From: Candidatus Doudnabacteria bacterium RIFCSPHIGHO2_12_FULL_48_16
GTDB lineage: Bacteria; Patescibacteriota; Doudnabacteria; UBA920; O2-02-FULL-48-8
DNA length: 64,000 nucleotides
Assembly (NCBI GenBank): GCA_001780035.1
Contig: MFEY01000005.1
Location: 40,354 to 104,353 of the forward strand
Reading direction: 5' to 3'
Positions 12,749 through 60,939 of the stretch are shown one piece after another. The notes under the pieces were generated by a model. That model was not told the DNA's origin. It worked only from the letters and a program-made list of their open reading frames with translations, and did no database searches. Each line of letters opens with the position of its first letter. Position 1 is the stretch's first letter. The position numbers and the translations under genes are program-made.

Positions 12749-14125
12749 TTAGTAAGAGCTGCGGTCGTCGCGATAGCGGATGCGGTTCGCATCAAACCCT
12801 TGATCCTGCGGTCGGCTGGGATCGCGGCGGGGAAACTGGTCGCGCGATTTATAGCGGCCGGGTTTTCTAAACCCAGGGCGGGCAGGGCGATCAGAGGAGC
12901 GGTTGCCCTGTTCGCGCACATAATCATGACGCGGCTGGCCCGGGCGGCTGGGCATTGGACGGGCTTCGCGTCTGAATTCAGCTCGGCCCGTGGTGGGAAT
13001 CGATTGCAACCCTTCAGCTTGCTTGACCGGAAGGGTAATTCTGATTAGGCGTTCAATACTGCGAACATCGTAGCGCTGGTCCGGCGTGGCGAAGGAAATC
13101 GCTTTGCCAGCCAGGCCCGCCCGGCCAGTACGGCCGATGCGATGGACGTAATCTTCCGGGTTTTCCGGCAGATCGTAGTTGATCACGAGCTCAATGCCGC
13201 TAACGTCGATGCCGCGGGCCGCAATATCGGTGGCGATCAACACGCGGTAACGGCCGATTTTGAACCCTTCCAGAGCTTCTTTGCGCTGGCCCAGGGAGCG
13301 GTTGGAATGGATTTCAGAAGAGGTGTGGCCCATATTGCGGACGGCATGGGCGATTTTTTTGGCGCCAAATTTCGTCCGGGTAAAAACCAGGATGCTGCCT
13401 TTATGTTCGGTTAAAATCTTGGTCAGCAGAGAAACTTTCTGGTCGCGGGCGACGAAGAAAACTTCCTGGGCCACGTCGCGCGCGGCGGTGCCGGATGGCG
13501 CCACTTCGATTCGGATCGGGATGGTCATGTATGAGGTGGCGATCTGAACGATGGAGTTCGGCATGGTGGCCGAGAACAGCATGGTCTGTCTGGCTTTGGG
13601 CACTTTGGCCAGGATGCGGCGGATCTGGGGCTCAAAGCCCATGTCGAGCATGCGGTCGGCTTCGTCCAAAACCAAAATCGTGACCGAAGACAGATCGATT
13701 GTTTTTTGTTCCAGATGATCGTTGATGCGACCGGGGGTGCCGATGATAATATGTGGATTTTGGCGCAGGCTGCGGATCTGTCTGTTGATTGGTTCGCCGC
13801 CGATTAAGACGGAAGTTTTGAGTCCGACTTGGCGGCCGATTTTTTGCAGAGCCTCGTCGACTTGCAACGCAAGTTCGCGGGTCGGTAAAATGATCAGGCC
13901 GCGGCCTTTGTTTTGAGCCAGGCGCTGAATCATCGGAATGCCAAAAGCCATGGTCTTGCCAGTTCCGGTTTGCGCAATGCCCATGACATCTTTGCCTTCA
14001 ATCGCAATCGGAATCGATTGGAACTGAATCGGGGTCGGTATAGTGAACCTAAGTTGTTGGAGGATTTCAAACAGCTTGGGAGCTATTCCTAACCCTTCGA
14101 AAGAAGTGTTGGTCGGATTGACCAT
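12749..14125 (-). CDS. DEAD-box ATP-dependent RNA helicase
   Basis: AQTGTGKT, DEAD (LVLDEADRMLDMGF), SAT and HRIGRTGRAG, with an R/D-rich C-terminal tail. Confidence 0.9.
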   Translation of the reverse strand: MVNPTNTSFEGLGIAPKLFEILQQLRFTIPTPIQFQSIPIAIEGKDVMGIAQTGTGKTMAFGIPMIQRLAQNKGRGLIILPTRELALQVDEALQKIGRQVGLKTSVLIGGEPINRQIRSLRQNPHIIIGTPGRINDHLEQKTIDLSSVTILVLDEADRMLDMGFEPQIRRILAKVPKARQTMLFSATMPNSIVQIATSYMTIPIRIEVAPSGTAARDVAQEVFFVARDQKVSLLTKILTEHKGSILVFTRTKFGAKKIAHAVRNMGHTSSEIHSNRSLGQRKEALEGFKIGRYRVLIATDIAARGIDVSGIELVINYDLPENPEDYVHRIGRTGRAGLAGKAISFATPDQRYDVRSIERLIRITLPVKQAEGLQSIPTTGRAEFRREARPMPSRPGQPRHDYVREQGNRSSDRPARPGFRKPGRYKSRDQFPRRDPSRPQDQGFDANRIRYRDDRSSY

Positions 14126-14251
14126 AAAAAATGAGTTTCTTCCGCCGTCGCTAAAGCTATGGCGGATCCGCCGAAGCTTTACGCGTAGGCGGAGACCCGA
14201 ACGTCCAAGGGCCAGAAATACAGCGCAATTTGGTATCGAGTCGATTATTTA

Positions 14252-24668: not shown

Positions 24669-25655
24669 TCAGAGAAACAGCTTGTTATTCAAGCTTTGCA
24701 GGCCGTTAAGGTAATCCTTACCGGTCATTTCGTTTTTGCCTTCCGGTTTGACTTTTTTGAGCAGTAACGAGTTATCGACGCATTTAACGGCCAACCCTTC
24801 GCCGGTGCCGTAAAGTTTGCCGGGCAGTTCGATTTTGTGATCGCTGATAATTTCAACTTCCAGGATTTTTACAAGTTTGCCGCCCAAGGTCGTCCAGGTT
24901 CCGGGCTCCGGGTTGTAGGCGCGGATCTTGCGGTCAATTTCTGCGGCGGATCGGGCCCAATCGATTTTCCCGTCGTCCCGAGTGAGCATTTTGGTGTAGC
25001 TGGCTTCTAGGTGATTTTGAGGTTGACGGGACAGCCGGCCGGCGACTAAATTAGTCAGCGCTTCGCTGACTAATTCGGCTGACAAGAGTGAGAGCGAATG
25101 ATAAAGCTCCGGCAAGGTTTCTCGACCGGTCAGGGCCATAGTTCGGATAGCCAAAATATCGCCATGATCCATTTTTTCATCCATCTGGATCAGAGTTATC
25201 CCGGCGCTTTTGTCGCCATTGAGAATAGTCGCCTGGATCGGCGTCGCGCCCCGGTATTTGGGCAGCACGGAGCCGTGAATATTGATCGAGCCAAATTTGG
25301 GCAGATCAAGAATTGCCTGGGGGAGAATCTGACCGTAAGCCGCAACCAATAAAAGATCAGGACTTAAATTAGAAATTATAGATTTTAAATTATAAATTTT
25401 TTCAGGCTGCTCAACCGGTATGCCGTTCTTTAGGGCCCAAACTTTAATCGGCGGGGGAGTAAGTCTCCTGTCCCGGCCGGCGGGCTTGTCCGGCTGGGTA
25501 ATGATTAAAACAATTTCAAAAGGAGTTTTTCCGCCGGAGGCGCCCGCCTGCCCGGCCGGCAGGGATCCGCCTTTGGCGGAGAGTTTTTCCAGGGTCGGGA
25601 TGCCGAATTCAGTTGTGCCGGCGAATATGATTTTTAGCATGTTACATCTTCTCAT
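24669..25655 (-). CDS. fmt: methionyl-tRNA formyltransferase
   Basis: IVLIITQPDKPAGR...SINIHGSVLPKYRGATPIQ. It carries a roughly 17-aa P/A/G-rich insertion from a GC-rich hairpin pair. Confidence 0.9.
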   Translation of the reverse strand: MRRCNMLKIIFAGTTEFGIPTLEKLSAKGGSLPAGQAGASGGKTPFEIVLIITQPDKPAGRDRRLTPPPIKVWALKNGIPVEQPEKIYNLKSIISNLSPDLLLVAAYGQILPQAILDLPKFGSINIHGSVLPKYRGATPIQATILNGDKSAGITLIQMDEKMDHGDILAIRTMALTGRETLPELYHSLSLLSAELVSEALTNLVAGRLSRQPQNHLEASYTKMLTRDDGKIDWARSAAEIDRKIRAYNPEPGTWTTLGGKLVKILEVEIISDHKIELPGKLYGTGEGLAVKCVDNSLLLKKVKPEGKNEMTGKDYLNGLQSLNNKLFL

Positions 25656-26118
25656 CCGGTTTGCCGGACGTTTTTCTGATAATCTTGCTCGTAAATAAAA
25701 TTCCGTCCAGATGATCGACTTCGTGCTGGATCACTCGGGAGAGCATGCCGTCGGCATCGAATTTATGTTTTTTACCGTCGAGATTTTGCGCCTCGACCGT
25801 GATCTCAACCGGGCGTTTCACAATTCCGAAGATTCCGGGGATCGACAGGCAGCCTTCCTCCAGCTCCACTTTTTTCCAGGATTTTGTGACAATTTTTGGG
25901 TTGACCAGGGCAAAGGGCGGCAGGCCGAGGTGTTCGAGGTTGATAATGCAAAATCGGATGGATTTGCCGATCTGCGGGGCGGCCAGGCCGATGCCGTTGA
26001 CCACGCGGGAGGTTTTGATCATTTCATCGGCGAGTTTAACCAGCTCGTCATCGATCTTTTTAACGAGAGTGGTTTTCTTATTTAGGATCGGATTTGGGGC
26101 TTGGACTATTTTCAGCAT
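25642..26118 (-). CDS. def: peptide deformylase
   Basis: GIGLAAPQIG, EGCLSIPG and QHEVDHLDG. Confidence 0.9.
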   Translation of the reverse strand: MLKIVQAPNPILNKKTTLVKKIDDELVKLADEMIKTSRVVNGIGLAAPQIGKSIRFCIINLEHLGLPPFALVNPKIVTKSWKKVELEEGCLSIPGIFGIVKRPVEITVEAQNLDGKKHKFDADGMLSRVIQHEVDHLDGILFTSKIIRKTSGKPDEKM

Positions 26119-26386
26119 CTTTGTTGAGACCCTGACTTTCGTCAGGATTGCGGTTCTTTTTTAATAAATATGCGAATAAAGCGCCTGGTTTCCTGGTCGT
26201 TTTACTCTCTAGCACCTCACCGGCAATGCGCCGCAGAAAACCGTGATCGTGCGTCAACGCCAGTTTCAGATAAAATCCGAAATGACGCTTGTCTGAAAAT
26301 TTATTCGAAAGCTCGTCTGCCAAAGCGTGGGCAGGGGAGTGGATGTGTTGCTCCGCATGTTTTTTGAACTGACGCTTTATATCCAT
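26078..26386 (-). CDS. hypothetical protein (doubtful)
   Basis: 102 aa with no recognisable motif. Its 3' end overlaps the def start by about 40 nt and contains a hairpin, so it may be spurious. Confidence 0.25.
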   Translation of the reverse strand: MDIKRQFKKHAEQHIHSPAHALADELSNKFSDKRHFGFYLKLALTHDHGFLRRIAGEVLESKTTRKPGALFAYLLKKNRNPDESQGLNKDAENSPSPKSDPK

Positions 26387-27217: not shown

Positions 27218-28730
27218 ATTTGCGCCGAGTCCGACAGGTTTTTTGCATATTGGTGGCATCCGCACCGCGCTTTACGAATTTCTTTGGGCGCGCAAAAATA
27301 ATGGCAAGTATCTCCTGCGCATCGAGGACACAGATCGCCAGCGGCTCGTGCCCGGATCGCTGGAGAATATTGTGCAAAGTTTGGAGACTCTGAGAATCGT
27401 CAGCGATGAGGGGCCGTATTGGGACAAGGGCCTCAAATTTCGCGGTGAGTTCGGGCCCTACATCCAATCCGAGCGGCTGCCAATTTATCAAAAATATGCC
27501 CAAGAGTTGATTGAAAAAAAAGCGGCTTACTATTGTTTCTGCTCGAGCGAGCGGCTGGATAAACTGCGTGAAGAACAGCAGGCCCAGAAACTGCCGCCGA
27601 AATACGACAAACTCTGTCTGAAATTGTCATCAGAAGAGGTTAGCAGTAAGCTAGCCGCGAAGGAAGCGCATGTCATCCGCCTGAACGTGCCGAGTGATCG
27701 GATAATTAAATTTCATGATCATATACACGGCGATATTGAGATTCCGAGCAAGGATGTAGATGACCAGGTGCTACTCAAGTCGGACGGATTTCCCACGTAT
27801 CACTTGGCGGTTGTCGTGGACGATTATTCGATGAAAATTTCCCACGTGATCCGAGCGGATGAGTGGATTGCTTCCACCCCCAAGCACATTCTCTTGTATG
27901 AAGCTTTTGGCTGGCCACTGCCAGTGTTTGTGCACTTGCCGGCGATCTTGTCCCAAGCGACCGGGAAGAAACTTTCGAAACGCGAGGGAGATGTCTCGGT
28001 TAAGGATTTTTTAGACAAAGGTTATCTGCCTGAAGCGTTGATAAATTTTTTGGCCCTGCTTGGCTGGAATCCGAAAACGGAGCAGGAGATTTTCAATATG
28101 CGTGAATTGGTCGCAGAATTTTCCCTTGATAAGCTCAATAAATCCGGTGCTGTGTTTGATTTGGACAAATTGGACTGGTTTAACAGCATGTATATCCGAG
28201 CTCTTAAAATTGAGGACTTGTTTGCCAGACTGGTTCCATATTTGGTCAAGGCCGGAATTCAAACCGAAAAATATCCGAAAGAGTTTCTAGAAAAGATTTT
28301 ACTGCTCGAACAAAGCCGGCTTAAAAAACTCTCCGAGATAGGGGAGAGGGTCAAATACTTTTTCGAGGAGCCGCAATACGAGCCCGGACTTTTGTGCCCG
28401 CCTGCGCGCAAGGCTTCGGCGGGTCCGCCTCCGGCGGAGAAAAAATCAGAAAAAGAGACAATTCTCAAAAATTTGAATTCACTGCAGATTTTTCTGCAAA
28501 CATTGTCCGCCGAGAAGTTTGCGCAAAAAGACATTGAAGCAGAGATCAAAAATTTTATTGAGAGCAACCAATTAAAAACCGGAGAAGTGCTCTGGCCGTT
28601 GCGCGTGGCTCTGTGTGGCCTGGAAGCCTCGCCTGGGCCGTTTGAAATCATTGACGCGTTCGCCAGTCTGCCCGATGGCAAAGAACAGGTGCTTAAGCGC
28701 ATCAGCCGGGCGTCGGAAATGCTGTTTTAA
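27198..28730 (+). CDS. gltX: glutamate--tRNA ligase
   Basis: HIGH motif (PSPTGFLHIGG) and KLSKR (KMSKS). The C-terminal region carries a P/A-rich insertion from GC-rich hairpins. Confidence 0.9.
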   Translation: MPEVRTRFAPSPTGFLHIGGIRTALYEFLWARKNNGKYLLRIEDTDRQRLVPGSLENIVQSLETLRIVSDEGPYWDKGLKFRGEFGPYIQSERLPIYQKYAQELIEKKAAYYCFCSSERLDKLREEQQAQKLPPKYDKLCLKLSSEEVSSKLAAKEAHVIRLNVPSDRIIKFHDHIHGDIEIPSKDVDDQVLLKSDGFPTYHLAVVVDDYSMKISHVIRADEWIASTPKHILLYEAFGWPLPVFVHLPAILSQATGKKLSKREGDVSVKDFLDKGYLPEALINFLALLGWNPKTEQEIFNMRELVAEFSLDKLNKSGAVFDLDKLDWFNSMYIRALKIEDLFARLVPYLVKAGIQTEKYPKEFLEKILLLEQSRLKKLSEIGERVKYFFEEPQYEPGLLCPPARKASAGPPPAEKKSEKETILKNLNSLQIFLQTLSAEKFAQKDIEAEIKNFIESNQLKTGEVLWPLRVALCGLEASPGPFEIIDAFASLPDGKEQVLKRISRASEMLF

Positions 28731-30330: not shown

Positions 30331-31080
30331 CTACTTCTCAACCACAATCATGGCCTTGGGCCGGCCTGTTTGGTCTTCGTGATACCCCGTCTTGTAATCG
30401 ACAAGGGCATTAAAGAAAATATTGTAGCTATATCTGTAGCCTTTGCCATTGCGTGTGCCAGGATCATTGGTTATGACTTGTTTCTTCGCCTCATCGTATC
30501 CTATAACCACGAGCATATGCGTCAGTGGCCCGGCACCGGTGAAATTAGGGTTATTGAGCTTCTGGCCATTGGCCGGAGTAATGACTAACTTCCCTGCCGC
30601 CAGTTCTTTTTTGATGTCTTCTATAGTGATCCCTGACTTTACAGTATGGTTATCGTAGTGATAATAATCCGTCATGAGCTTGGCCGTATCGGCTGCGCCC
30701 AGGTCCAGGTAGTTACCATAAGTTTCTTTTTCAAACTCAGACATGGCAATAATGGTTTTTTCCGCTTCAGAAGCTGAGATGGAAGTTTTCCCTTGGGTCC
30801 AGGCGTAGGCCATGATCAACGAAGCCTCTTCGCAACCATCCTGTTGGCGCGGATCAGACCAGTTGGCCGTCGGCGCTTGGGCAGTAAAAGGCACGGTCAA
30901 GAGGACATAACCCGGCAAGGCGCTCGCCTGCCCGGCCGGAGTTGACGGGCTTTGGCTAGCGGGACTCGTTTCGTTCTTGGGTTGATCCTTGGGCTGATCA
31001 TTTGGTTTGGGTTTGAATATCAAAACCGCTGCCAAAGCCAGAGCGACCATGATCAAAATTGTTAAATTGATTTTTTTCAT
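30331..31080 (-). CDS. secreted C39-like (BtrH/YvpB-type) cysteine peptidase domain protein
   Basis: Signal peptide, a Cys in QQDGCEEAS and a His in THMLVVIGYD. Confidence 0.55.
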   Translation of the reverse strand: MKKINLTILIMVALALAAVLIFKPKPNDQPKDQPKNETSPASQSPSTPAGQASALPGYVLLTVPFTAQAPTANWSDPRQQDGCEEASLIMAYAWTQGKTSISASEAEKTIIAMSEFEKETYGNYLDLGAADTAKLMTDYYHYDNHTVKSGITIEDIKKELAAGKLVITPANGQKLNNPNFTGAGPLTHMLVVIGYDEAKKQVITNDPGTRNGKGYRYSYNIFFNALVDYKTGYHEDQTGRPKAMIVVEK

Positions 31081-32873: not shown

Positions 32874-33230
32874 TTATCTTAAAGCTTTTCTGAAACCCGC
32901 AGCCTGGGCGGCGGACTCGGTTGCAAAGCAGGTCAGTGCGTTAAGCTTATCATATCCGGATTGTCCGGGCACATGGTAAATTCGCGAGCTCGGCGTGCCT
33001 TTGATTTTGCATTCCGCGCTGTTGGTTTCTGATTGTAAACCTGACACGGTTGGAGTATAATTACTCTCAGCAGATACGTTTTGCTCCAGCCTGATTTCCG
33101 GGCCTTTTTCTTGAACGGTTGCCAGCTGACCGAGAGCAAAGCCAATCGAGGCAACCAGGAGATAGCCGATCGCGAGGACAATTGCCTGCTGACGGGTTTT
33201 GATAAACAGTTTTATTTTTTCCATATGCAA
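32874..33230 (-). CDS. membrane-anchored protein with Ada-type metal-binding-like domain
   Basis: An N-terminal TM helix and C-terminal C..IYHVPG..Y....CF.TE.AA.AAGFR, which resembles the Ada N-terminal Zn-binding motif. Confidence 0.4.
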   Translation of the reverse strand: MHMEKIKLFIKTRQQAIVLAIGYLLVASIGFALGQLATVQEKGPEIRLEQNVSAESNYTPTVSGLQSETNSAECKIKGTPSSRIYHVPGQSGYDKLNALTCFATESAAQAAGFRKALR

Positions 33231-33261
33231 TATGCGTTTATCCTAGGGAGGGTTTATACTT

Positions 33262-34583
33262 TGTCCTTGGCCGAAATTCTCAAGGTCTTGCAGGCTTTGG
33301 GCGTGGGGCACAAAATTCTGGCTTGCTCCCCCGAGGTCGTGGTCATCGAAACCGACAAAGCCTTAAAACCCGAAGAACTGCAGCCGCGCCTGGGCGGTGT
33401 TATCAAAATTATACGACTTTTTGACACTTTTCAAAAGAAGGGCAAGGAATTCCCTTCCCAGGTTCTGGGCAGTTACTTCACCTTTAAGCGCATCAAGGAA
33501 TATTTTCACGAATATTCCGGCAAGAAGCAGTTCGGCGTTTCAATTTACAGTTTGGATCCGACAGTTCGATTTCGCGAAGAAGCCCAGCGCGTGGCTTTCC
33601 TGATCAAAAAAGTTTTACAGGACGAAACCCAAAGCGTTCGGGCCGTCCTGCCGCAGTTTCCCTCCCAGGCGCTGACCTCGGTGCAGGTCAACGAAAATCA
33701 TATTTTGGAAAAAGGCGCTGAGGTAGTAGTCATTAGTGGCAACCAAAGATTATTTATCGGCAAGACCATCACTGTGCAAAATTATGAGGACTACGGGCGC
33801 CGGGATTATCAGCGGCCAGCTCGTGATGAAAAAGTCGGTATGATTCCACCCAAGGTCGCGCAGACCATGATTAATTTCGCCCAGCCGCTCAAGCCTCTCG
33901 ATTATATCCTTGATCCGTTCTGCGGCTGCGGCACGGTGTTGCAGGAAGCTATCTATATGGGCTATCGCGCTATCGGCGCGGATCTGGAGCAGAAAATGGT
34001 GGAAAATAGCGAGAAGAACCTTGAGTGGTTCCGAAACCGCTACCACGTTTCGCCGGGCCGCTACAAGTTGTTTAAATCAAATGCGGCGGAAATTTCGATT
34101 ATCCTCCCCAATTATCAGGTTGCGGCCGTGGTCACCGAAGGCACCCTGGGCCCGATCTATAGCAAGTTACCAAAAAAGCCGGAGATGACGGAAAATTTTA
34201 AAACCTTAAGCAAGCTCTATGATCAGGTTTTCAAGGAATTTAAAAAATTCCTGACCGAGGGGGCGCGGGTTGTGATCTGCCTGCCGGCCTATAAAGTCAG
34301 CGCTACAGACTACGCCTTTCTGCCCGATCTTGACTTTGCGACCCAAAACGGGTATACTGTCTTGGATCCCCTGCCCGATTTTTTGGTCAAAAAATACCGC
34401 TTCCTCAAAGTCACGGAACGCAAATCCTGCGTCTATGACCGGCGAGATCAGATCGTGGCGCGCGAGATTGTTATATTTCAATATGGAACTAACGATTCGA
34501 ATCAAGTATTAACCGAAGATCGTAATAGCAACCCCGCGGGTGAAGACGAGAATTCGGAACTAACCGAAAACAATGGCGCATAA
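33262..34583 (+). CDS. class I SAM-dependent methyltransferase (UPF0020/putative RNA methylase-like)
   Basis: [13 protein letters not shown] is SAM-binding motif I. The probable start is TTG 33262 with a GGGAGGG SD 10 nt upstream. An in-frame ATG at 33225 is the alternative. Confidence 0.55.
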
Positions 34584-34880: not shown

Positions 34881-34903
34881 AACCCCGCCTCTGGCGGGGT
34901 TTT
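34881..34903 (+). terminator. intrinsic terminator after rpmA
   Basis: aaccccgcc-tctg-gcggggtt followed by ttg. Confidence 0.6.
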
Positions 34904-34965: not shown

Positions 34966-36108
34966 ATGAAAAAATTTAAAGTATTCGGTCTTGCAGCGGT
35001 CGTGTTGGCATTGGCCGCTTCTCCGGTTCTGGCCGCGGAGTTTATTGCGCCGGAAAGCAAAACAGATGCCAATATCTCGACTCTGCAGCAGGACGTGCAT
35101 AAAAATCTTTATATTGCGGGCGCCGCGGTGACGATCAACGGCAAAATCCAGGGCGACCTGGCTGCGGCTGGCGGCGTCGTGACTGTGAACGGTGATGTCG
35201 AAAAAGGCCTATTGCTCGCCGGCGGCAATCTGAATCTCAACGCTGCTGTGGGTGAAAATGCCCGCATCGCCGGCGGCAATGTTTCCATCAATGCTCCGGT
35301 CGGCGGCGATTTGCTGGTCGGCGGCGGGAACATTACAATTGCCCAAAAAGCCAAAGTGGGTGGCGATCTTGTTATCGGCGGGGGCAATGTCTTGCTGGAC
35401 GCGGATGTGGCCGGCAATGTGAAAATCGGCGGGGGCAATGTTACAATCAATGGCAAAGTCAGCGGCAACGTCGAGGTTATGGCCAATCAAAATCTAACGT
35501 TCGGCCCGGCCAGTCAGGTTCTGGGGAAAGTTAGCTTCAAGGGTCCGCAGGAAGCGGTAGTCAAACCAGGCGCGAAGGTGGGCGTGATTACTTACACTCA
35601 TATCAACAAGCGAGTGGCCCACCGGAGCGGCATAATCGGATTGTTGATCATTGGCAGCTTGTTTAAACTGATTATGCTGCTGGTTGCGGCCGTAGTTTTG
35701 GCCTGGCTCTTGCCCAGTAAGATTTCAGCCGTTGTCGCCGAAGCCAAAGCCAAGCCCTGGCACAGCCTAGGATTCGGGGTCTTGGTGGTAATTCTCTCCC
35801 CCATCTTGGGAGTGATTCTGATGGCAACGGTTCTGGGGATTTATCTGGGAATGATTGTGTTTATGATCTTTGGCCTGCTTATGATTATTTCGGCCATTCT
35901 CTCTCTGTTCTATGTCGGTAACCAGGTTTGGAGCTGGTATCACCGCGATGCAATCGCCAATCGCTGGCGCGATCTAGGGCTTGGCGCGCTGATCACGCTG
36001 ATTCTCGGGTTTATCCCGATCGTGGGCTGGGTAATCCTCCTGGTCATCTGGCTCATTACGCTGGGGGCGCTTAAAAGATACACTTATCAGGAAGCCTTCG
36101 GTAAATAA
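34966..36108 (+). CDS. secreted/membrane protein with beta-helical GGN repeats (bactofilin/DUF4097-like) and C-terminal TM domain
   Basis: Signal peptide, a repeated xGGNVxIN/VGGDLxV pattern, and four C-terminal TM helices. Confidence 0.5.
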   Translation: MKKFKVFGLAAVVLALAASPVLAAEFIAPESKTDANISTLQQDVHKNLYIAGAAVTINGKIQGDLAAAGGVVTVNGDVEKGLLLAGGNLNLNAAVGENARIAGGNVSINAPVGGDLLVGGGNITIAQKAKVGGDLVIGGGNVLLDADVAGNVKIGGGNVTINGKVSGNVEVMANQNLTFGPASQVLGKVSFKGPQEAVVKPGAKVGVITYTHINKRVAHRSGIIGLLIIGSLFKLIMLLVAAVVLAWLLPSKISAVVAEAKAKPWHSLGFGVLVVILSPILGVILMATVLGIYLGMIVFMIFGLLMIISAILSLFYVGNQVWSWYHRDAIANRWRDLGLGALITLILGFIPIVGWVILLVIWLITLGALKRYTYQEAFGK

Positions 36109-36127
36109 GGCAAAAACTAAACACCCC

Positions 36128-36161
36128 GTCTCTCGCGAGAGGCGGGGTGTTTAAATTTGAT
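36128..36161. terminator. bidirectional intrinsic terminator (convergent genes)
   Basis: aaacaccccgtctctcgcgagaggcggggtgttt hairpin with a self-complementary ctcgcgag core. It abuts the pyrG stop codon. Confidence 0.6.
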
Positions 36162-37793
36162 CTATTTTTTAATGCTGGCTTTTATAAATTCACAGAATAA
36201 TGGGCCAGGGTTTAAGGGCCTTGATTTAAATTCCGGGTGGAATTGCACGCCCAGGAAGAACGGATGATCGGCCAACTCGACGATTTCCACCAGGTGGCCA
36301 TCGGGTGTGGTGCCGGAAAAGATCATGCCGGCGGCTTCAAACTGCTTGCGGTATTTGTTATTAAATTCATAGCGATGGCGGTGGCGCTCGGAAATCTTGC
36401 GCGCGCCATAGGCTTTTTCTGCGATTGAACCGGGCTTGAGGACACAGTCCCAGGCACCGAGGCGCATGGTGCCGCCGTATTCTTTTTTCAAAAGCTTCTT
36501 TTCCTGATCCGGCATGATATGAATCACCGGATGAGGAGTTTCGTCATCAACCTCCACGGTGTGGGCGTTTTTGAGCTTCAGCACATTGCGCGCGAACTCG
36601 ATGGTCGCCATCTGCATGCCATAGCACAGTCCCAGATAAGGAATCTTGTTCTCACGGGCGTAAGTGATGGCCTGAATCATGCCTTCCACTCCTCGCTTGC
36701 CGAAGCCGGGCGTAATCACAATCCCATGCATATCGTCGAGGTGCTTTTCGGCGCCGTCCTTCTCGATTTTTTCGGAGTCGATCCAGTGCAGCACCGGTTT
36801 GGCCTTGTTATGCCAGCTGCCGTGCTTGAGAGCTTCAATAATCGAAACATAAACATCGGCGAGGTTGTAATTGCCGGTGCCGAAGTATTTGCCAACCACG
36901 CCGATATGAACTTCTTTTTTGACCGTTTTCATGGTCCGGACCAGATTTTTCCATGGCTGCAGGTCTTTGCGGCCGGGCGGCAGCTTGAGTTTTTCCAGGA
37001 TTTTCTCGCCAAAGCTCTGGTTCTGCAATCCCAGGGGCACTTCGTAAATTGAGGGTAGATCCGGGTTGGAAATCACGTCTTCTTTGCGGACGTTGCAAAA
37101 CAGAGCGATGCGCTCCTTGCGCTTGTCGTCTACGGCGTGTTCGGCGCGTGCCACCACAAAATCCGGCTCAATCCCCAGCGAGTTGAGCAGCCGCACCGAC
37201 TGCTGCACGGGTTTGGATTTCATTTCCCCGAGATTGCTAGGGATCGGCAGATAGGCGACGTGAACCTGGATGACATCGCCGGGCGCACGAAGTTTCATGA
37301 GCCGGGAAGCTTCGAAGAAAATGCCGTTTTGATATTCGCCCACGGTGCCACCCAGTTCAATGATAACCACGTCGGCATCCTTGCCCGCGAGTTTAAACCG
37401 CCGGATAATTTCATCGGTAATGTGCGGAATGGCTTCTACGTCCTCGCCGTTATATTCAAAAGCCCGTTCCTTGCGTAAAACTTCGGAATAAACCTGGCCG
37501 GTGGTAATATAGTTTACCCGGCTCAGATCCCGGCCCAGAAACCGCTCGTAGTGGCCGAGGTCTTGGTCGGTTTCGACCCCATCATTGGTCACGAAAACCT
37601 CACCGTGCTCCTGGGGCCGGATAGTGCCAGCGTCCAAGTTGAGATACATATCCACCTTGACCGGCGAAACTTTATAGCCTTTGCTTTTTAAAATGGCGGC
37701 AATTGATGCCGCTGTAATGCCCTTGCCGAGACCCGAAATGACTCCCCCGGAAACAAAGATATATTTGGTGCTGCGTTTGAGTTTGGCGCTCAT
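36162..37793 (-). CDS. pyrG: CTP synthase
   Basis: YIFVSGGVISGLGKGITAASIA N-terminus and a C-terminal GATase domain (GLCYGMQ). Confidence 0.95.
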   Translation of the reverse strand: MSAKLKRSTKYIFVSGGVISGLGKGITAASIAAILKSKGYKVSPVKVDMYLNLDAGTIRPQEHGEVFVTNDGVETDQDLGHYERFLGRDLSRVNYITTGQVYSEVLRKERAFEYNGEDVEAIPHITDEIIRRFKLAGKDADVVIIELGGTVGEYQNGIFFEASRLMKLRAPGDVIQVHVAYLPIPSNLGEMKSKPVQQSVRLLNSLGIEPDFVVARAEHAVDDKRKERIALFCNVRKEDVISNPDLPSIYEVPLGLQNQSFGEKILEKLKLPPGRKDLQPWKNLVRTMKTVKKEVHIGVVGKYFGTGNYNLADVYVSIIEALKHGSWHNKAKPVLHWIDSEKIEKDGAEKHLDDMHGIVITPGFGKRGVEGMIQAITYARENKIPYLGLCYGMQMATIEFARNVLKLKNAHTVEVDDETPHPVIHIMPDQEKKLLKKEYGGTMRLGAWDCVLKPGSIAEKAYGARKISERHRHRYEFNNKYRKQFEAAGMIFSGTTPDGHLVEIVELADHPFFLGVQFHPEFKSRPLNPGPLFCEFIKASIKK

Positions 37794-38233
37794 AGTGCTG
37801 TTATCTTCAACCTAATTTTAAAATTAATTGTTTCGTTCAATTTTATTAAAACTTCGTGCAATCCCAGATGCTTGATCGGTTTTTCGATCACAATCTTATT
37901 CGCGTCCAGGCTGTCCGGGAATTTTTGATTTATCGCGCTGGCGATTTCATCTTCGTGGACGGCCGCAAATAAACTGTTGCTGGAGGCCCGCGCCTTAATT
38001 TCAAATTCCTGATGGCTGAGTTTGTTTTTGAGCTGTTGCTGGAATTCCTGGATCCGGGTAACTTTGGCTTGTTTTTCTTTCTCTTCCTTCTGGACTTTGG
38101 TCAAGACTTCTGTCGTGGCCGGCAGGGCCAGATGCCGAGGAATGAGGAAGTTTCTCGCATGGCCATCGGAGACATCCTTGACGTCGCCCGTTCGGCCCAG
38201 CCCTTTGACATCCTTAGTCAGAAGTATTTTCAT
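37790..38233 (-). CDS. rplI: 50S ribosomal protein L9
   Basis: MKILLTKDVKGLGRTGDVKDVSDGHARNFLIP. Confidence 0.85.
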   Translation of the reverse strand: MKILLTKDVKGLGRTGDVKDVSDGHARNFLIPRHLALPATTEVLTKVQKEEKEKQAKVTRIQEFQQQLKNKLSHQEFEIKARASSNSLFAAVHEDEIASAINQKFPDSLDANKIVIEKPIKHLGLHEVLIKLNETINFKIRLKITAL

Positions 38234-38243
38234 ACTACAATCA

Positions 38244-39161
38244 TTATACCTTCAAGTAGCGGCGCATGGCAATACTGGAAGCAATGGCCGAAAGGACAAT
38301 GCTGGCGGCGAGATTCACCAGCAGGATGCGCCAGAACAGAGCGCTGATCAGGCTGGAGCCCAGAACCTGAATTGAAAGGAATTGCTCAATCCGGCCGGAC
38401 AGCAGAATCAGCAGAATCAGGATAATGAGCGAAGTTAGAACCGTGGCGATCAGGGAATAAAGAATGCCCTCGATCATAAACGGCCAGCGGATATACCAGT
38501 TGGTGGCGCCGACGAGGCGCATGATCTCCACTTCCTCCCGGCGGTTGTAGATCGTGAGGCGGATGGTATTGAAAGTTACCATAACAGTTACGACCATAAA
38601 GATGGCGGCCAGGAGGATGCCGAACCTGGTAATGAACTGGATGATCCGATAAAGCTTGTTGATGACCGTCTGGTTGTCGCGGACATTTTGAAAGTAAGGC
38701 GCGTAGCGCTGGCCCTTGAGGGTGTCGTAAATTCGGGAATAATCGGTCAGATCGTAAGCCTTCACCGCAATGGAACCGGTTAAGGGGTTTTCAGCGTCGG
38801 TAAATTCATTTAAGCTCTCAATCCAGTTGGGTTCGTTTTGGTGGATCAGCTTAAACTGCGCGATCGCTTCTTCTTTGGTCGTGTAATTGACTTCCCTCAC
38901 GCCCTCTAGGCCTTTTATTTCCGTAATGACGTTCTGGACTTCCTTATCCGTGGTTTGCTGGTTGAAATACGCGGTCACCACGCCAATCTTATCTGTGGAA
39001 TTTTGGATGGCGACCGAGGTTAAAGCATAAAGGACAATTATTATGGAAATAATAAACAAGGTAATGGCGACCATGGAAGTGGCCGCGATTGAAATCCAAA
39101 TGTTCCGCAGAAAATTTGTTAAACCCGATTTAATCAAGCGTTTCGTCTCCAAGGTTGTCAT
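38244..39161 (-). CDS. ftsX: cell division ABC transporter permease FtsX
   Basis: FtsX topology and the FtsX C-terminal motif region, directly downstream of ftsE. Confidence 0.85.
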   Translation of the reverse strand: MTTLETKRLIKSGLTNFLRNIWISIAATSMVAITLFIISIIIVLYALTSVAIQNSTDKIGVVTAYFNQQTTDKEVQNVITEIKGLEGVREVNYTTKEEAIAQFKLIHQNEPNWIESLNEFTDAENPLTGSIAVKAYDLTDYSRIYDTLKGQRYAPYFQNVRDNQTVINKLYRIIQFITRFGILLAAIFMVVTVMVTFNTIRLTIYNRREEVEIMRLVGATNWYIRWPFMIEGILYSLIATVLTSLIILILLILLSGRIEQFLSIQVLGSSLISALFWRILLVNLAASIVLSAIASSIAMRRYLKV

Positions 39162-39162
39162 A

Positions 39163-39258
39163 TCCCGTTAGAAAATTGATAATAATATGATATTTTTTTC
39201 GATGCTTATATTATAAATTTAATGCTGTTAATTTAACTTTGAGCTATTTCTAACGGGA
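39163..39258. repeat. inverted-repeat element, copy E, exactly filling ftsE-ftsX gap
   Basis: tcccgttagaaaat at 39163-39176 pairs with atttctaacggga at 39246-39258. One end abuts the ftsE stop and the other abuts the ftsX ATG. Confidence 0.6.
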
Positions 39259-39936
39259 TCATAGGACGTATTTGCCTTTCTCCTGGTCGTAAATGATTTC
39301 ACCTTTTTCAATGGTGATCACGCGTTTTTTGACGCTGTTGACCAGCTCCTTGGCGTGCGTAGCCAGAATGACCGTGGTTCCCGTTTTATTGATCTTCATC
39401 AGCAGCTGTAAAATTTCCCAGGCATTAATCGAATCCAAGTTTCCCGTCGGCTCGTCAGCCAAAAGCAGCACCGGCTTGTGCACCATGGCGCGCGCAATTG
39501 CTACGCGTTGTTTTTCGCCGCCGGACATTTGGTGTGGGAAAGCATGAGCCTTTTCCTGCAAGCCGACCAGTTCCAGAACCCGCGGCACTTCTTTTTTGAT
39601 CATGGCCGCCGGTTCCCCGGAAACTTCCAGGGCAAAAGCGACGTTTTCGAGAGCAGTACGGTTGGGTAGAAGCTTGATGTCTTGGAACACCACGCCGATT
39701 TTGCGGCGCAGATATGGAATGTCCCGGGCTTTGATTTGGGCCACGTCAATGTCATCGATCAGGATCCGGCCGCTGTCCGGCTTTTCTTCCCCGATAATCA
39801 GGGAGATGAGCGTGGACTTGCCGGCGCCGGATTGCCCGATCAACGATAAAAAATCCCCTTTGTGGATGTCGATGCTGATATTTTTCAGCGCAATGATTTG
39901 GGGATATGTTTTTGTTACTTTATCGAAACGAATCAT
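39259..39936 (-). CDS. ftsE: cell division ATP-binding protein FtsE
   Basis: GQSGAGKSTL, MSGGEKQRVAIARAM and LLADEPTGNLD. Confidence 0.9.
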   Translation of the reverse strand: MIRFDKVTKTYPQIIALKNISIDIHKGDFLSLIGQSGAGKSTLISLIIGEEKPDSGRILIDDIDVAQIKARDIPYLRRKIGVVFQDIKLLPNRTALENVAFALEVSGEPAAMIKKEVPRVLELVGLQEKAHAFPHQMSGGEKQRVAIARAMVHKPVLLLADEPTGNLDSINAWEILQLLMKINKTGTTVILATHAKELVNSVKKRVITIEKGEIIYDQEKGKYVL

Positions 39937-39964
39937 ATAAATTATTATAGCAAAGATTTTACGT

Positions 39965-40750
39965 TTACCCTAGCAATTGTTTGACTAAGGCGATCATTTC
40001 ATCGCGTTCTTGTTTTAAAACCTCGGGCCGGGTCTCCAACAGGCCGTTTGATTCCCCAGCCGGTGGCATTATTTCGTAAACTCGGTCGGAAAACAGGGCC
40101 GGCGCCAGATACTGGCTGTTATTATTGTAAATTACCAGGATATCAGTGGCTTTCGTCTTTAGAATTTGATCCAATTGCCATTGATAATCAGCGACACTCC
40201 ACATTAGCGGATCTTTGTATTGACTGTGGCCAAGTTTCGTGCTGCCTGGGTGCAGAAACGGCGCGGAAATCGCGGCTTTCATTAAATTAAAAAAATTCTG
40301 CGAGCCGACCTTGTGAACCTCCAGATATTCAATCTTGTTTTCCCCAAGGTTTTTAACGATAACAAATAATTTGGTTTTGCTCGCCAGGACTTTGTCCACC
40401 GGCAAAGGCTTCTTGTTTTTGAAAACATCTATCAAGTAATCAATATCCATTAAATTCCACGGATGGGAGGCGTTAATAAATTTTCGGCCGGCCAGCTCTT
40501 CATAATAAATTGACGGGCCCTTGTCCGGATCGTCGGCCAGAAAATAGCAGGCATTGGGAAATCCTGCGGACATTGAGTAGATTTCATCGAATGCATGCGT
40601 CAGGCCCAGCTGCTGCAATCCGATCAAGGCTCCGGAGCCGCGCATTCCGCTCATCACGCCGCCGAATACGAGTAGGACGATCCGCCGGCCGTCTTTAAGC
40701 GGCACTTTTTTGTTTCTTCTGGCATTAATATGTTCAAGCGCAGGGTGCAT
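39965..40750 (-). CDS. patatin-like phospholipase
   Basis: Gly-rich loop GGVMSGMRGSG and the GxSxG nucleophile elbow YSMSAG. Confidence 0.65.
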   Translation of the reverse strand: MHPALEHINARRNKKVPLKDGRRIVLLVFGGVMSGMRGSGALIGLQQLGLTHAFDEIYSMSAGFPNACYFLADDPDKGPSIYYEELAGRKFINASHPWNLMDIDYLIDVFKNKKPLPVDKVLASKTKLFVIVKNLGENKIEYLEVHKVGSQNFFNLMKAAISAPFLHPGSTKLGHSQYKDPLMWSVADYQWQLDQILKTKATDILVIYNNNSQYLAPALFSDRVYEIMPPAGESNGLLETRPEVLKQERDEMIALVKQLLG

Positions 40751-41840
40751 TTATTTATTTTTTTCCAGATATTTTTTAATGAATTCTTCGAGGTTGCCTT
40801 CCAGAACATGTTCGGCATCCGAAGTTTCGTAACCCGTCCGATGGTCTTTGACCAATTTGTAAGGATGCAGGACATAGGATCGGATTTGATTTCCCCATTC
40901 GGCGCTGTGAAACTCGCCGCGGATTTGCAGGCGTTCCTGCTCCTTTTTTTGTTCGTCCAGCGCGGCCAGTTTGGCGGATAAAATTTTTAAGGCCTGTTCT
41001 TTGTTCTGCGACTGGCTGCGCTCATTTTGAATCGTGACGGTGATTCCGCTCGGCCGATGCACGGCGCGGATAGCTGAATAGGTCGTATTTACCGATTGAC
41101 CGCCATGGCCGCGTGAGGTTTTGGCTTCAAGTTCGATTTCGCCCATATCCAGTTTATATTCCGATTGCTCGGTCACGGGTAAAACTTCGACCAGGGCAAA
41201 CGAAGTTTCGCGGGTATGCGCCGGATTATACGCCGACAATCTGACCAGGCGATGCACGCCGGCCTCGGATTTGAAATAGCCGTAAGCATGGGGGCCGGAA
41301 ATTTCAAGCACCACGCTTTTGATGCCGGCTTCCCCACCGCGGCTTTCATCGATCATCGTCACTTTGAATTTTTTGGCTTCGGCAAAGCGGGAATACATCC
41401 GCAGCAGCATCTGCGCCCAATCTTGGGCATCCACCCCACCCGCCCCGGCGTGGATGGACAAAATCGCGTCGTGATCATCGTATTTGCCCGAAAGGAAGGT
41501 GTTGAGGCCAAACTGGCCGTATTGGGCCGTTAAAAGCTCAAATTTGACCTTTAGCTCGGCTTCCAGGGCCTTGTCGCTGTCTTTGGTCGCCAGGGCGGTT
41601 AGCTCCTCCAATTCATGCAAATCAGCTTCAAATTTAAACCAGCTTTCAATCTCACTTTTTAGGTGGGCATGCGTCTTGGATTTTTCACGCGCCGAATTTT
41701 GGTCAGACCAAAATTCGGGCTGGGCCATGGCGTCTTCGAACTCTAGCAGTTTTTGTTTCTTTTGGGGCAGGTCAAAGATGCTCCTTCAGATCTTTGGCCT
41801 GATCTTTTAGCGTTTTAATTTTTCGCAGCAGTTCGTCCAT
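40751..41840 (-). CDS. prfB: peptide chain release factor 2, with programmed +1 frameshift at 41774
   Basis: ORF0 encodes MDELLRKIKTLKDQAKDLKEHL then stops. The +1 frame continues DLPQKKQKLLEFEDAMAQPEFW and reaches the GGQ motif. The CTT TGA C shift site has AAGGAG 3 nt upstream. Confidence 0.85.
41771..41786 (-). promoter_or_regulatory. RF2 autoregulatory +1 frameshift site (internal SD + CUU UGA C)
   Basis: On the minus strand the sequence reads gAAGGAGcatCTTTGAC. Confidence 0.8.
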
Positions 41841-59060: not shown

Positions 59061-59066
59061 CGCGAG

Positions 59067-60779: not shown

Positions 60780-60939
60780 TCCCCCTTGAAAATCTAAAAG
60801 CTAAGCCTACTTAGCTTAGCCCCTATTAGCAACATACTAGGCGATTATCGATATATTGGCAAATAAAAACGAGGGTAACTCTAGGCAAGCGTCTGCGTGA
60901 AGCAGAACTTATCTAAAGTTACCCAAGCGGGCGGCGCCG

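What the first reader, a model, noticed from the sequence alone, without database searches (positions are those of the whole stretch)
25528..25582. GC-rich palindromic in-frame insertion in fmt (ctgcccggccggcag + ccgcctttggcgg)
It adds about 17 aa (AKGGSLPAGQAGASGGKTP) between the N-terminal beta-strand and the conserved TQPD motif of Fmt. The region contains two perfect short palindromes. A 15-mer, cgcctgcccggccgg, is shared with the C39 peptidase gene at about 30920. By itself that is within chance expectation, so I treat it only as supporting.
Basis: partly seen in the sequence, partly recalled or inferred. Interest (0 to 1): 0.55.

Follow-up and report, generated by a model that had tools for sequence, protein, structure and literature searches.

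The report
Mobile-looking palindromic insert in fmt
The GC-rich extra loop in this bacterium's Fmt enzyme is one copy of a tiny DNA element (a 15-base hairpin, usually doubled into a 30-base palindrome) that recurs almost letter for letter inside many unrelated genes of ultra-small groundwater bacteria, so it looks like an apparently undescribed kind of selfish DNA that survives by being translated as a harmless floppy loop.

Summary
Window 25530-25580 is a 51-nt, 17-codon in-frame insert in fmt (Candidatus Doudnabacteria). About 109 of 118 close Fmt homologues lack it.

It is not a one-off. It is built from a 15-nt hairpin unit, TCCGCC-nnn-GGCGGA. Two such units in tandem form a 30-nt near-palindrome centred on GGATCC, which I call "E".
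- A Doudnabacterium whose Fmt is only 63% identical carries the intact 30-mer at the same fmt site.
- The window copy is that 30-mer plus a third, 21-nt hairpin unit nested inside it.
- The exact 30-mer occurs on at least 120 metagenome contigs. Most copies lie inside long ORFs, and 82% of those are in the frame that reads SAxGGSAxGG.
- The window holds two more copies: one in gltX in a different reading frame, and one intergenic.
- Filled versus empty orthologous sites in fmt, gltX and an Omnitrophota miaB show seamless insertion with no target duplication.
- Presence and absence differ between proteins 93-94% identical.
- Stem changes are compensatory.

Best reading: a non-autonomous, hairpin-based mobile or selfish element, tolerated in surface loops. 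It resembles Rickettsia RPEs and mitochondrial GC clusters. The mobilising enzyme is unknown. I found no Rfam family and no paper describing it.

The parts
24669..25640 (-). fmt (methionyl-tRNA formyltransferase), the host gene of the insert. The start ATG at 25640 lies 1 nt after the def stop codon.
   Evidence: ORF list. 100% identical to P0001 with Pfam Formyl_trans_N/C. Matches in PDB 1fmt/2fmt.
25530..25580 (-). The whole in-frame insert: 51 nt, SAKGGSLPAGQAGASGG. It consists of three hairpin units of the TCCGCC...GGCGGA family.
   Evidence: Sequence. Absent from at least 70% of syntenic orthologues. Covariance model R1 gives E = 3e-8. AlphaFold pLDDT below 50 for residues 24-37.
25566..25580 (.). 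Unit A: TCCGCC-TTT-GGCGGA on the plus strand. On the coding strand it reads TCC GCC AAA GGC GGA = SAKGG.
   Evidence: 15/15 nt identical to L001:10061-10075 and L007:10061-10075 at the same fmt site.
25530..25565 (.). Unit B, TCCGCC-GGA-GGCGGA, split into 25530-25542 and 25564-25565 by the nested 21-nt unit.
   Evidence: Removing 25543-25563 gives TCCGCCGGAGGCGGA, the reverse complement of L001:10076-10090.
25543..25563 (.). Nested third unit CCCGCC-TGCCCGGCC-GGCAGG. It contains the inner hairpin CCTGCC/GGCAGG (25547-25563) and encodes LPAGQAG. It holds the 15-mer also found at 30925.
   Evidence: Extra relative to L001. It sits at the apex of the long hairpin. It shares GCCCGCCTGC with the gltX copy.
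28397..28438 (+). Second copy, in gltX: CCCGCC-(15-nt loop)-GGCGGG followed by TCCGCC-TCC-GGCGGA. It is read in a different frame (PPARKASAGPPPAE).
   Evidence: R1 gives E = 1.4e-12. 117 of 120 GluRS orthologues are empty at this site. It appears as an 11-aa gap against PDB 4gri. Removing it restores TGG AAA AAA.
14141..14193 (.). Third copy, intergenic, in the 5' region of the DEAD-box helicase gene. Both units have 14-15-nt loops, and the whole is a 53-nt near-palindrome centred on GGATCC.
   Evidence: Sequence. R1 gives E about 2e-6 on both strands. Its loop is 12/15 identical to the long loop of the gltX copy.
30925..30939 (.). Exact 15-mer shared with the nested unit, lying in the variable linker of the C39-like peptidase gene. 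Whether it belongs to the element family is not established.

Best explanation
The fmt insert is a copy of a very small, non-autonomous, hairpin-based mobile (selfish) DNA element.

Structure. The basic unit is a 15-nt hairpin, [T/C]CCGCC-loop-GGCGG[A/G]. The common form is a head-to-tail dimer, TCCGCC-RRA-GGCGGA|TCCGCC-TYY-GGCGGA. This is a 30-nt near-palindrome centred on GGATCC, usually flanked by T's upstream and A's downstream.

What is shown:
- Copies are inserted seamlessly, with no target-site duplication and no loss of flanking bases.
- They often lie next to an A-run.
- They can nest within one another. The window's fmt copy is a dimer with a third unit nested inside unit B.

What is inferred:
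- The element is 15 or 30 nt long and lacks stop codons, so insertions that land in surface loops or right after the start codon are translated as short flexible peptides and persist. SAxGGSAxGG is the best-tolerated frame.
- Insertions elsewhere are purged by selection.
- Movement is driven in trans by an enzyme that recognises the hairpins on single-stranded DNA. The best known analogues are the HUH/Y1 transposases of the IS200/IS605 and RAYT type, which also insert and excise seamlessly. No such enzyme has been linked to the element here.
- The insert contributes nothing to Fmt function.
For: Same DNA in unrelated places.
My own estimate of the chance expectation is about 0.01 or less.
- In 1.31 Mb of fmt-centred loci, nearly all labelled as Patescibacteria, a covariance model finds about 11 copies, in Doudna-, Yanofsky- and Buchananbacteria and Paceibacterota.
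- The window itself has three copies.

Independence from reading frame.
- Of 93 copies in ORFs of at least 150 aa, 76 read SAxGG, 12 read PPxADPP and 5 read RRRIRLWR.
- A further 25 copies lie in no sizeable ORF.

Filled versus empty sites are seamless.
- fmt: CTC|E|AAA against CTC AAA.
- gltX: TG|E|G AAAAAA against TGG AAAAAA.
- Omnitrophota miaB: TC|E|A GAG against TCA GAG-type relatives.

Patchy and dynamic distribution.
- 9 of 118 Fmt and 3 of 120 GluRS homologues are filled.
- Empty P0011 and filled P0013 are sisters: 94% identity, bootstrap 100.
- Empty P0012 is nested inside a filled clade: bootstrap 98-99.5.

Hairpins are maintained.
- 96% of cells are paired, and 8 of 12 pairs show changes on both sides.
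- Variant stems keep their pairing: TCCACC/GGTGGA, TCCTCC/GGAGGA, TCCGGC/GCCGGA, TCAGCC/GGCTGA, CCCGCC/GGCGGG.

Conservation beyond coding need.
- Window against L001 is 30/30 identical in the element, while third-codon identity in the flanks is about 0.6.

Nesting, merging and decay.
- Intact, nested and decayed forms are all seen.

Tolerated position.
- The insert is a disordered surface loop in Fmt.
Against: - No transposase or other mobilising gene has been tied to the element. The one Y1_Tnp found (L025) is flanked by different hairpins.
- Copy number is low, roughly 1 per 100 kb. This is unlike REPs.
- The 24 stem bases are almost invariant across phylum-level lineages (Patescibacteria and Omnitrophota). 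This is unusual for neutral selfish DNA and could instead mean a conserved cis function.
- Repeated occupation of exactly the same site in different lineages (fmt loop, gltX TG|G) needs either target specificity or a strong survivorship filter. Neither has been demonstrated.
- The metagenome set was ascertained with an exact pattern, so stem invariance within that set is partly circular.
- No within-population insertion polymorphism at more than 99% identity was observed.
Confidence: 0.6

Rival explanations
1. The 30-mer is a functional cis-acting site. It would be either a palindromic DNA site for a dimeric protein (as parS, NBS or matS organise chromosomes) or an RNA hairpin that affects mRNA stability or translation. 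It would have been implanted in or retained at a few places per genome, and the coding insertions would be the price of carrying the site in a compact genome.
For: - The 24 stem nt are almost invariant across Patescibacteria and Omnitrophota.
- Copy number is low, about 1 per 100 kb.
- The element is kept at the same site in diverged orthologues: fmt in window, L001 and L007; AlaRS-like pairs L162/L172; also L120/L174 and L094/L106.
- Stem changes are compensatory.
- Three copies cluster within 14 kb of the window.
- In the paralogue pair on L157, the loops and flanks differ while both copies have all 24 stem bases.
Against: - Most orthologues of each host gene lack the element, and closely related proteins differ in presence.
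- Copies decay (L002, L004, L006).
- Copies nest in each other and pile up in hotspots together with unrelated palindromes.
- A dimeric protein site would not be expected to tolerate paired stem changes.
- The flank polarity (T's upstream, A's downstream) is not that of a terminator.
Confidence: 0.2
2. The insert is a lineage-specific, selected protein feature of Fmt: a flexible Gly/Ser/Ala loop. Its DNA looks palindromic only because Gly (GGN) codons are the reverse complements of Ser/Ala/Pro (NCC) codons.
For: - The insert is in frame and Gly/Ala/Ser-rich.
- A similar peptide, SAKGGSASGGK, is present in P0019.
- 82% of copies inside ORFs use this frame.
Against: - The same DNA is read in two other frames and also lies outside ORFs.
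- All synonymous positions are identical between proteins 63% identical.
- About 109 of 118 homologues do without it.
- The loop is predicted to be disordered and lies away from the conserved motifs.
Confidence: 0.05
3. The insert arose on the spot through replication errors, either hairpin-templated strand switching (quasi-palindrome correction) or slippage, with no copying from another locus.
For: - Palindromes can grow and be 'corrected' by template switching.
- The nested 21-nt piece sits near the centre of the palindrome and could have arisen this way.
- The 15-mer shared with the C39 gene 5.4 kb away could mark an ectopic template.
Against: - It cannot explain more than 120 loci converging on the same 24 bases in unrelated genes and organisms.
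- The nested piece itself has family-type ends, CCCGCC...GGCAGG.
Confidence: 0.08
4. The insert is an assembly, library or contamination artefact, for example a linker or adapter palindrome containing a BamHI site.
For: - The centre of the element is GGATCC.
- The long-loop copies contain ACGCGT and AAGCTT.
- Literature hits for GGCGGATCCGCC are all cloning primers.
Against: - Copies are in frame in natural genes.
- Loops vary and stems show compensatory changes.
- Copies occur in independent projects and sources (JGI, ENA Hainich, NCBI WGS, Logan).
- Orthologous copies have diverged flanks.
Confidence: 0.02

Closest known systems
Rickettsia palindromic elements (RPEs)
   Same: Palindromic repeats inserted in frame into unrelated housekeeping genes and translated as extra peptide segments compatible with the protein fold. 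No associated transposase is known (PMC10969869).
   Different: RPEs are about 100-150 bp, form about ten families and are confined to Rickettsia. The element here is 15-30 nt (up to about 55 nt with long loops), has short G+C stems, and is spread across Patescibacteria and at least one Omnitrophota lineage. There is no sequence resemblance.
Mitochondrial GC clusters (yeast GC42/GC18), double-hairpin elements, repetitive hairpin-forming elements
   Same: Short G+C-rich palindromic units sitting between A/T-rich flanks. They show sporadic presence and absence, substitutions concentrated in loops, and units that merge, shuffle and nest into larger clusters. The mechanism is unknown (PMC4478555).
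   Different: They occur in organelles and are mostly intergenic. GC42 carries a putative AG target duplication. The element here is bacterial, mostly intragenic and in frame, and shows no duplication.
REP / REPIN elements mobilised by RAYT (Y1 HUH transposases)
   Same: Hairpins of 20-40 nt that often act as inverted doublets (REPINs). They are non-autonomous, and the hairpin is the recognised feature. Stems are kept by paired changes.
   Different: REPs are extragenic, occur in tens to hundreds of copies, carry a GTAG or CGTC tag (PMC3733652, listed) and flank a RAYT gene. The element here is mainly inside genes, in low copy number, has no such tag, and no RAYT gene was found nearby.
IS200/IS605-family elements and their palindrome-associated derivatives
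   Same: Seamless insertion and excision without target duplication. They depend on hairpins in single-stranded DNA and insert next to a short specific sequence. This comparison rests on my own knowledge of the family.
   Different: Known ends need about 30-40 nt each plus guide sequences. No TnpA has been linked here. The target preference (next to an A-run) is only a statistical tendency.
PARCELs and the coding palindromes of Nematomorpha mitochondria
   Same: Palindromic DNA inside ORFs in which both strands encode a similar peptide (PMC2996958, PMC6649704; listed).
   Different: Those are much longer (about 100 to 284 bp). PARCELs are tandem amphipathic repeats in surface proteins, not single seamless inserts in housekeeping enzymes.

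Membership tests
Rickettsia palindromic elements (RPE) | Palindromic repeat inserted in frame in protein-coding genes | tested here: met
   In-frame copies in fmt, gltX, miaB and AlaRS-like genes.
Rickettsia palindromic elements (RPE) | Length about 100-150 bp and membership of one of the RPE sequence families; Rickettsia host | tested here: not met
   The element is 15-55 nt and the hosts are Patescibacteria and Omnitrophota. RPE properties are taken from PMC10969869.
REP / REPIN (RAYT-mobilised) | Short imperfect palindrome, often as an inverted doublet | tested here: met
   15-nt hairpins in doublets whose loops are RRA and TYY.
REP / REPIN (RAYT-mobilised) | Extragenic location and high copy number | tested here: not met
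   93 of 123 copies lie in ORFs of at least 150 aa. Density is about 1 copy per 100 kb.
REP / REPIN (RAYT-mobilised) | Conserved GTAG or CGTC tag at one end | tested here: not met
   The flank and element logo shows T-T-T / TCCGCC ... GGCGGA / A-A-A, with no GTAG or CGTC.
REP / REPIN (RAYT-mobilised) | Cognate RAYT gene flanked by the same repeats | tested here: inconclusive
   tblastn with two Y1 transposase sequences recalled from memory gave nothing in the window. One Y1_Tnp was found in L025, flanked by GGGGACAGTCCCC hairpins rather than this element. Whole genomes were not available.
MITE | Terminal inverted repeats plus a target-site duplication; about 50-500 bp | tested here: not met
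   Three filled/empty comparisons show no duplication. The element is below the usual MITE size.
Mitochondrial GC clusters / double-hairpin elements | G+C-rich palindromic units flanked by A/T, sporadic distribution, merging of units | tested here: met
   Flank logo. Patchy distribution. Nested and merged forms.
Mitochondrial GC clusters / double-hairpin elements | Organelle genome; putative AG target duplication (GC42) | tested here: not met
   The host is bacterial, with def-fmt synteny. No duplication is present.
Intrinsic (rho-independent) terminator | G+C hairpin followed by a U-run at the end of a transcription unit | tested here: not met
   The plus-strand hairpin 25566-25580 plus GAGTTTTT scores as terminator-like, but it is antisense and lies inside fmt. 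Family-wide, T's precede and A's follow the element on both strands.
Any Rfam RNA family | Match at or near a family's gathering score | tested here: not met
   Only two tRNAs in the window reach gathering score. The best hit over the insert is 19.8 bits against a gathering score of 70.
IS200/IS605-type seamless ssDNA transposition (mechanism, not membership) | No target duplication, precise excision, hairpin ends, fixed short target | tested here: inconclusive
   Seamless insertion, an apparently precise loss (P0012) and hairpins are seen. The target is only a tendency towards A/T runs. The enzyme cannot be tested with these tools.

The most novel reading that the evidence does not exclude
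A previously undescribed family of ultra-short hairpin elements (15-nt unit, 30-nt dimer) is shared by Patescibacteria (CPR) and Omnitrophota. It inserts and leaves seamlessly, nests within itself, and colonises essential genes (fmt, gltX, alaS-like, miaB) by being translated as a flexible decapeptide. It is either moved by an ssDNA hairpin-recognising enzyme not yet linked to it, or kept by the host as a conserved cis-site. Its near-invariant 24 stem bases across phylum-level lineages would then point to an active, shared mobilisation or recognition machinery in ultra-small bacteria.
Probability: 0.45. Interest if true: 0.8.

Novelty: new variant of a known kind. Interest (0 to 1): 0.68.

Why it matters
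If correct, the compact genomes of ultra-small, host-dependent bacteria carry a class of selfish DNA small enough to hide inside essential genes.

- For annotation: odd G/S/A- or P/A/D-rich loops in CPR proteins would be recognised as element scars rather than as adaptations.
- For protein evolution: insertion hotspots would mark permissive loops.
- For mobile-DNA biology: this would be a minimal substrate (15-30 nt, no target duplication) whose enzyme could be sought by correlating copy number with gene content.

The element is also a convenient natural marker of gain and loss among closely related uncultured lineages.

Tried and rejected
- **Rfam.** A scan of the whole window and a permissive scan of the insert found nothing relevant.
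- **Literature.** Searches by concept and by the sequence or peptide itself found only cloning primers, synthetic linkers and analogous systems (RPE, GC clusters, PARCEL, REP). None describes this element.
- **Phage origin.** Only 2 exact copies occur in IMG/VR.
- **Linked Y1/RAYT transposase.** One Y1_Tnp was found, in L025, but it has its own different flanking hairpins.
- **Spread by homologous recombination of an fmt patch.** The flanks of window fmt are no more similar to L001/L007 than to empty orthologues, so there is no support for this.
- **The 15-mer shared with the C39 gene as proof of a further copy.** It lies in a variable linker and is not a clear insertion relative to orthologues; p is about 0.017. 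This is left open.
- **Terminator function.** Rejected on the polarity of the flanks.
- **A single long-hairpin model for the 30-mer.** Positions 7-8 and 23-24 are not systematically complementary, and the compensatory changes fit the two-hairpin model.
- **Biopython bootstrap.** It timed out and was replaced by a numpy version.
Full report
**1. The observation**

The window comes from a Candidatus Doudnabacteria genome (RIFCSP bins). This follows from the 100% identity of its Fmt and GluRS to named NCBI proteins. fmt lies at 24669-25640 on the minus strand, directly downstream of def.

Positions 25530-25580 encode 17 extra residues, SAKGGSLPAGQAGASGG. These lie between helix alpha1 and strand beta2 of the N-terminal domain.
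- The phmmer alignment to E. coli Fmt (1fmt/2fmt) begins right after the insert.
- In an AlphaFold model the protein is confident (mean pLDDT 89.8), except that residues 24-37 fall below 50 and have no secondary structure.
- The stretch has the highest 40-nt G+C content in the window: 0.88 against 0.49 overall.
TCCGCC-TTT-GGCGGA is at 25566-25580 and CCTGCC-CGGCC-GGCAGG is at 25547-25563.
- The whole insert folds into one long hairpin: -44.1 kcal/mol on the plus strand, z = -3.9.
- The 15-mer shared with 30925-30939 is exact.

**2. Orthologue comparison for Fmt**

Among about 118 close homologues, about 109 have nothing at this site. The typical sequence is LEKL-KAQ-HELVL, in proteins of 304-306 aa. 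Nine carry inserts of 4-17 aa in the same loop.

The DNA of these inserts is the key result.
- L001/L008, another Doudnabacterium whose Fmt is 63-64% identical, has ctc-TCCGCCAAAGGCGGA-TCCGCCTCCGGCGGA-aaa at the same position.
- L007 has only the first 15-mer.
- The window has the same 30-mer with 21 extra nt (25543-25563) inside the second unit.
- L002, L004 and L006 have inserts that start or end like these units but have otherwise decayed.
- The element is 30/30 identical between the window and L001, while third-codon identity in the flanking 38 codons is about 0.6.
- The flanks of L001 and L007 are no more similar to the window than those of empty orthologues, so a recombined patch is not the explanation.

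**3. A family, not a one-off**

I call the 30-mer 'E'.

With 24 fixed bases, I estimate the chance expectation at well below one. Most contigs have 33-50% G+C and a few have up to 72%. They come from independent projects: JGI, ENA Hainich and NCBI WGS.

The logo shows:
- position 9 is A in 94% of copies and position 22 is T in 91%;
- positions 7-8 are purine-rich and positions 23-24 pyrimidine-rich;
- the flanks are T-rich upstream (T at position -2 in 85%) and A-rich downstream (A at the second flanking position in 84%), with both present in 72% of copies.

The location of copies:
- of 93 copies inside ORFs of at least 150 aa, 76 are in the frame reading S-A-x-G-G-S-A-x-G-G, 12 read PPxADPPxAE and 5 read RRRRIRLWRK;
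- 25 copies lie in no sizeable ORF;
- 8 of 123 follow an ATG directly.

Because the element is a near-palindrome, both strands encode the same type of peptide.

**4. Unbiased sampling with a covariance model**

A covariance model with two hairpins (R1) finds three significant loci in the window:
- gltX 28397-28443, E = 1.4e-12;
- fmt 25530-25586, E = 3e-8;
- an intergenic copy at 14141-14193, E about 2e-6.

It also matches a lone hairpin followed by a T-run at 34884-34898, which looks like an ordinary terminator.

In 86 fmt-centred loci (1.31 Mb) that were not chosen for the element, about 11 loci match. They include Doudna-, Yanofsky- and Buchananbacteria, Paceibacterota and unclassified Patescibacteria, going by the record titles. 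This is roughly one copy per 100 kb. Only 2 exact copies occur in IMG/VR.

**5. Hairpins are the conserved feature**

On the model-aligned hits, 96% of cells are paired and 8 of 12 pairs show changes on both sides. No shuffle out of 500 reached the observed values on four of the five measures. The caveats are that the alignment is fitted to the model and that both strands are counted.

Independent examples of paired changes are CCCGCC/GGCGGG, TCAGCC/GGCTGA, TCCACC/GGTGGA, TCCTCC/GGAGGA and TCCGGC/GCCGGA. These fit two separate 15-nt hairpins. They do not fit one 30-nt hairpin: positions 7-8 and 23-24 are not systematically complementary.

**6. Seamless insertion, shown three times**

- **fmt.** Filled sites read CTC|E|AAA and empty sites read CTC AAA.
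- **gltX.** 117 of 120 orthologues read LL[IV]W-KKSDK. The window reads TTG TG|CCCGCC...GGCGGA|G AAA AAA, so deleting 28397-28438 restores the conserved Trp codon; one neighbouring codon is also missing in the window. L210 (P0142) carries a homologous long-loop copy at the same nucleotide. L211 (P0129) carries a different 45-nt filling with GCCGCC...GGCGG ends, also at TG|G. Against solved GluRS 4gri the insert is an 11-residue gap.
- **miaB on contig L109.** The best named homologues are Candidatus Omnitrophica. The sequence reads AAG TC|E|A GAG. Relatives 70-71% identical have ...KSEVR... with no E.

No target duplication is seen in any of the three cases.

**7. Dynamics**

A neighbour-joining tree with the insert columns masked, using 200 bootstrap replicates, gives:
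- empty P0011 and filled P0013 are sisters, with 100% support and 94% identity;
- empty P0012 is sister to filled P0005 (98% support, 93% identity), inside a filled clade supported at 99.5%. This suggests an apparently precise loss;
- the window groups with the empty P0002/P0004 at 76.5%;
- P0019 falls in another clade, supported at 67-71%.

The fmt loop has therefore been gained and lost several times within Doudnabacteria. Across 74 more distant species representatives, nearly all labelled CPR, the loop length is essentially constant.

**8. Nesting and variants**

- The 21 nt extra in the window (CCCGCC-TGCCCGGCC-GGCAGG) has family-type ends and shares GCCCGCCTGC with the gltX copy. I read it as a third unit inserted into unit B.
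- The gltX copy and the intergenic copy carry 14-15-nt loops (TGCGCGCAAGGCTTC and TACGCGTAAAGCTTC) that are 12/15 identical. Similar loops occur in a Yanofskybacterium (L075) and an Uhrbacterium (L047).
- In Omnitrophota MiaB, the site after EKRQ is a hotspot carrying 0-49 extra residues. Their peptides look like translated palindromes, and E sits inside one of them.

**9. Mechanism**

Shown:
- identical DNA at unrelated loci, in all frames and outside genes;
- seamless filled/empty pairs;
- patchy gain and loss;
- maintained hairpins;
- nesting;
- a tolerated, disordered position in Fmt.

Inferred:
- the element is a non-autonomous mobile or selfish unit whose hairpins are the recognised feature;
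- its length (a multiple of three), its lack of stop codons and its benign G/S/A peptide let copies survive in permissive loops, which would explain the 82% frame bias;
- mobilisation probably acts on single-stranded hairpins without leaving duplications, as HUH/Y1 transposases do.

No enzyme is linked to the element. The one Y1_Tnp I found (L025:7005-7517) is flanked by different hairpins.

The main rival is a conserved cis-site at the DNA or RNA level. The extreme conservation of the stems and the low copy number favour it. The patchiness, decay, nesting and hotspots argue against it. The readings as a selected protein feature, a purely local mutational origin, or an artefact are each contradicted by the data above.

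**10. Comparison with known systems, and novelty**

The element behaves like Rickettsia RPEs in being an in-frame palindromic insertion (PMC10969869). It behaves like yeast mitochondrial GC clusters in being made of small G+C hairpin units in A/T flanks that merge and turn over, with most substitutions in loops (PMC4478555).

It fails the defining tests for:
- RPE, on size and host;
- REP/REPIN, because it is not extragenic, lacks a GTAG or CGTC tag, is in low copy number, and has no RAYT gene nearby;
- MITEs, because there is no target duplication;
- intrinsic terminators, on flank polarity.

There is no Rfam family, and no paper in the searchable library describes it. I therefore rate it a new variant of a known kind. 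The caveat is that the literature search covers only open-access text.

**11. Verdict**

The finding widens into an apparently undescribed element family spread across ultra-small bacteria. The link to the C39 peptidase 15-mer remains unproven.

Noticed in passing
window 1790-1836 (in mnmA, 814-1944 +): mnmA carries an 11-residue insertion (IPPRGRAGKNPAKGA) relative to solved MnmA 2hma. It is encoded by two hairpins, CCCGCC-AAGAG-GGCGGG and CCCGCC-AAAGG-GGCGG, spaced 28 nt apart. The stems match the fmt element, but the loops are 5 nt and there is a spacer. Covariance model R1 scores it only 4.6 bits.
   Followed up: partly
window 12956-13000 (in the DEAD-box helicase gene, 12749-14125 -): A 15-aa in-frame insertion (IPTTGRAEFRREARP) that is absent from at least 70% of orthologues. 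It is encoded by a different hairpin, ACGGGC...GCCCGT, surrounding the 10-nt palindrome CTGAATTCAG.
   Followed up: no
window 34884-34898: A lone hairpin CCCGCC-TCT-GGCGGG followed by GTTTTG, downstream of ORF 33081-34583. It looks like an ordinary terminator, but its stem is the same as the element's.
   Followed up: partly
window 59000-61800: A block with 58-62% G+C in a window that averages 49%. It holds a purH-like gene (AICARFT/IMPCHase plus MGS, 59067-60779 -) and ends next to a tRNA gene at 61726-61798. It may be foreign or recently acquired DNA.
   Followed up: no
window about 36000-44000: Cumulative GC skew rises until about 41 kb and then flattens or falls. From 36 kb to 58 kb all large ORFs are on the minus strand. 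This may be a replication-related switch point.
   Followed up: no
L143:3265-3388: The first 17 nt of a tRNA-Val gene (GGGCCCGTAGCTCAGTT) are duplicated 107 nt upstream of the intact gene. An exact copy of the 30-mer follows the duplicate directly. It looks like an insertion or duplication event at a tRNA gene.
   Followed up: partly
P0241-P0360 (Omnitrophota MiaB); L109:4040-4260: The site after EKRQ in MiaB is hypervariable, with 0-49 extra residues. Peptides there, such as SEVRSQRSE, TSDIRHQTS and SMDHGPSTMD, look like translated palindromic or tandem DNA. This suggests that several unrelated hairpin elements pile up at one hotspot.
   Followed up: partly
L025:6860-7580: An N-terminally truncated IS200-like Y1 transposase (Pfam Y1_Tnp, E = 1.7e-12) in a Patescibacteria contig. 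It is flanked on both sides by GGGGACAGTCCCC-type hairpins, which is a REP/RAYT-like arrangement distinct from the element studied here.
   Followed up: partly
L157:34-1290: Two tandem paralogous membrane-protein genes (170 and 168 aa) both begin with Met followed directly by the 30-mer. The loops and flanks differ between the two, while both copies have all 24 stem bases.
   Followed up: partly
L132, L159, L187 (59-63% G+C contigs): Here the 30-mer sits inside a larger repeated unit with flanks related to ACCGGCTCTAC / GTAGAGCCGGT. A second, partial copy lies on L159 at 3301. The element may be part of a longer composite repeat in some hosts.
   Followed up: no
window 26078-26386 (-): A small ORF (102 aa) just upstream of def has no Pfam match. 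A gene of 83-98 aa with no recorded Pfam hit occupies the same position in all the syntenic Doudnabacteria loci.
   Followed up: no
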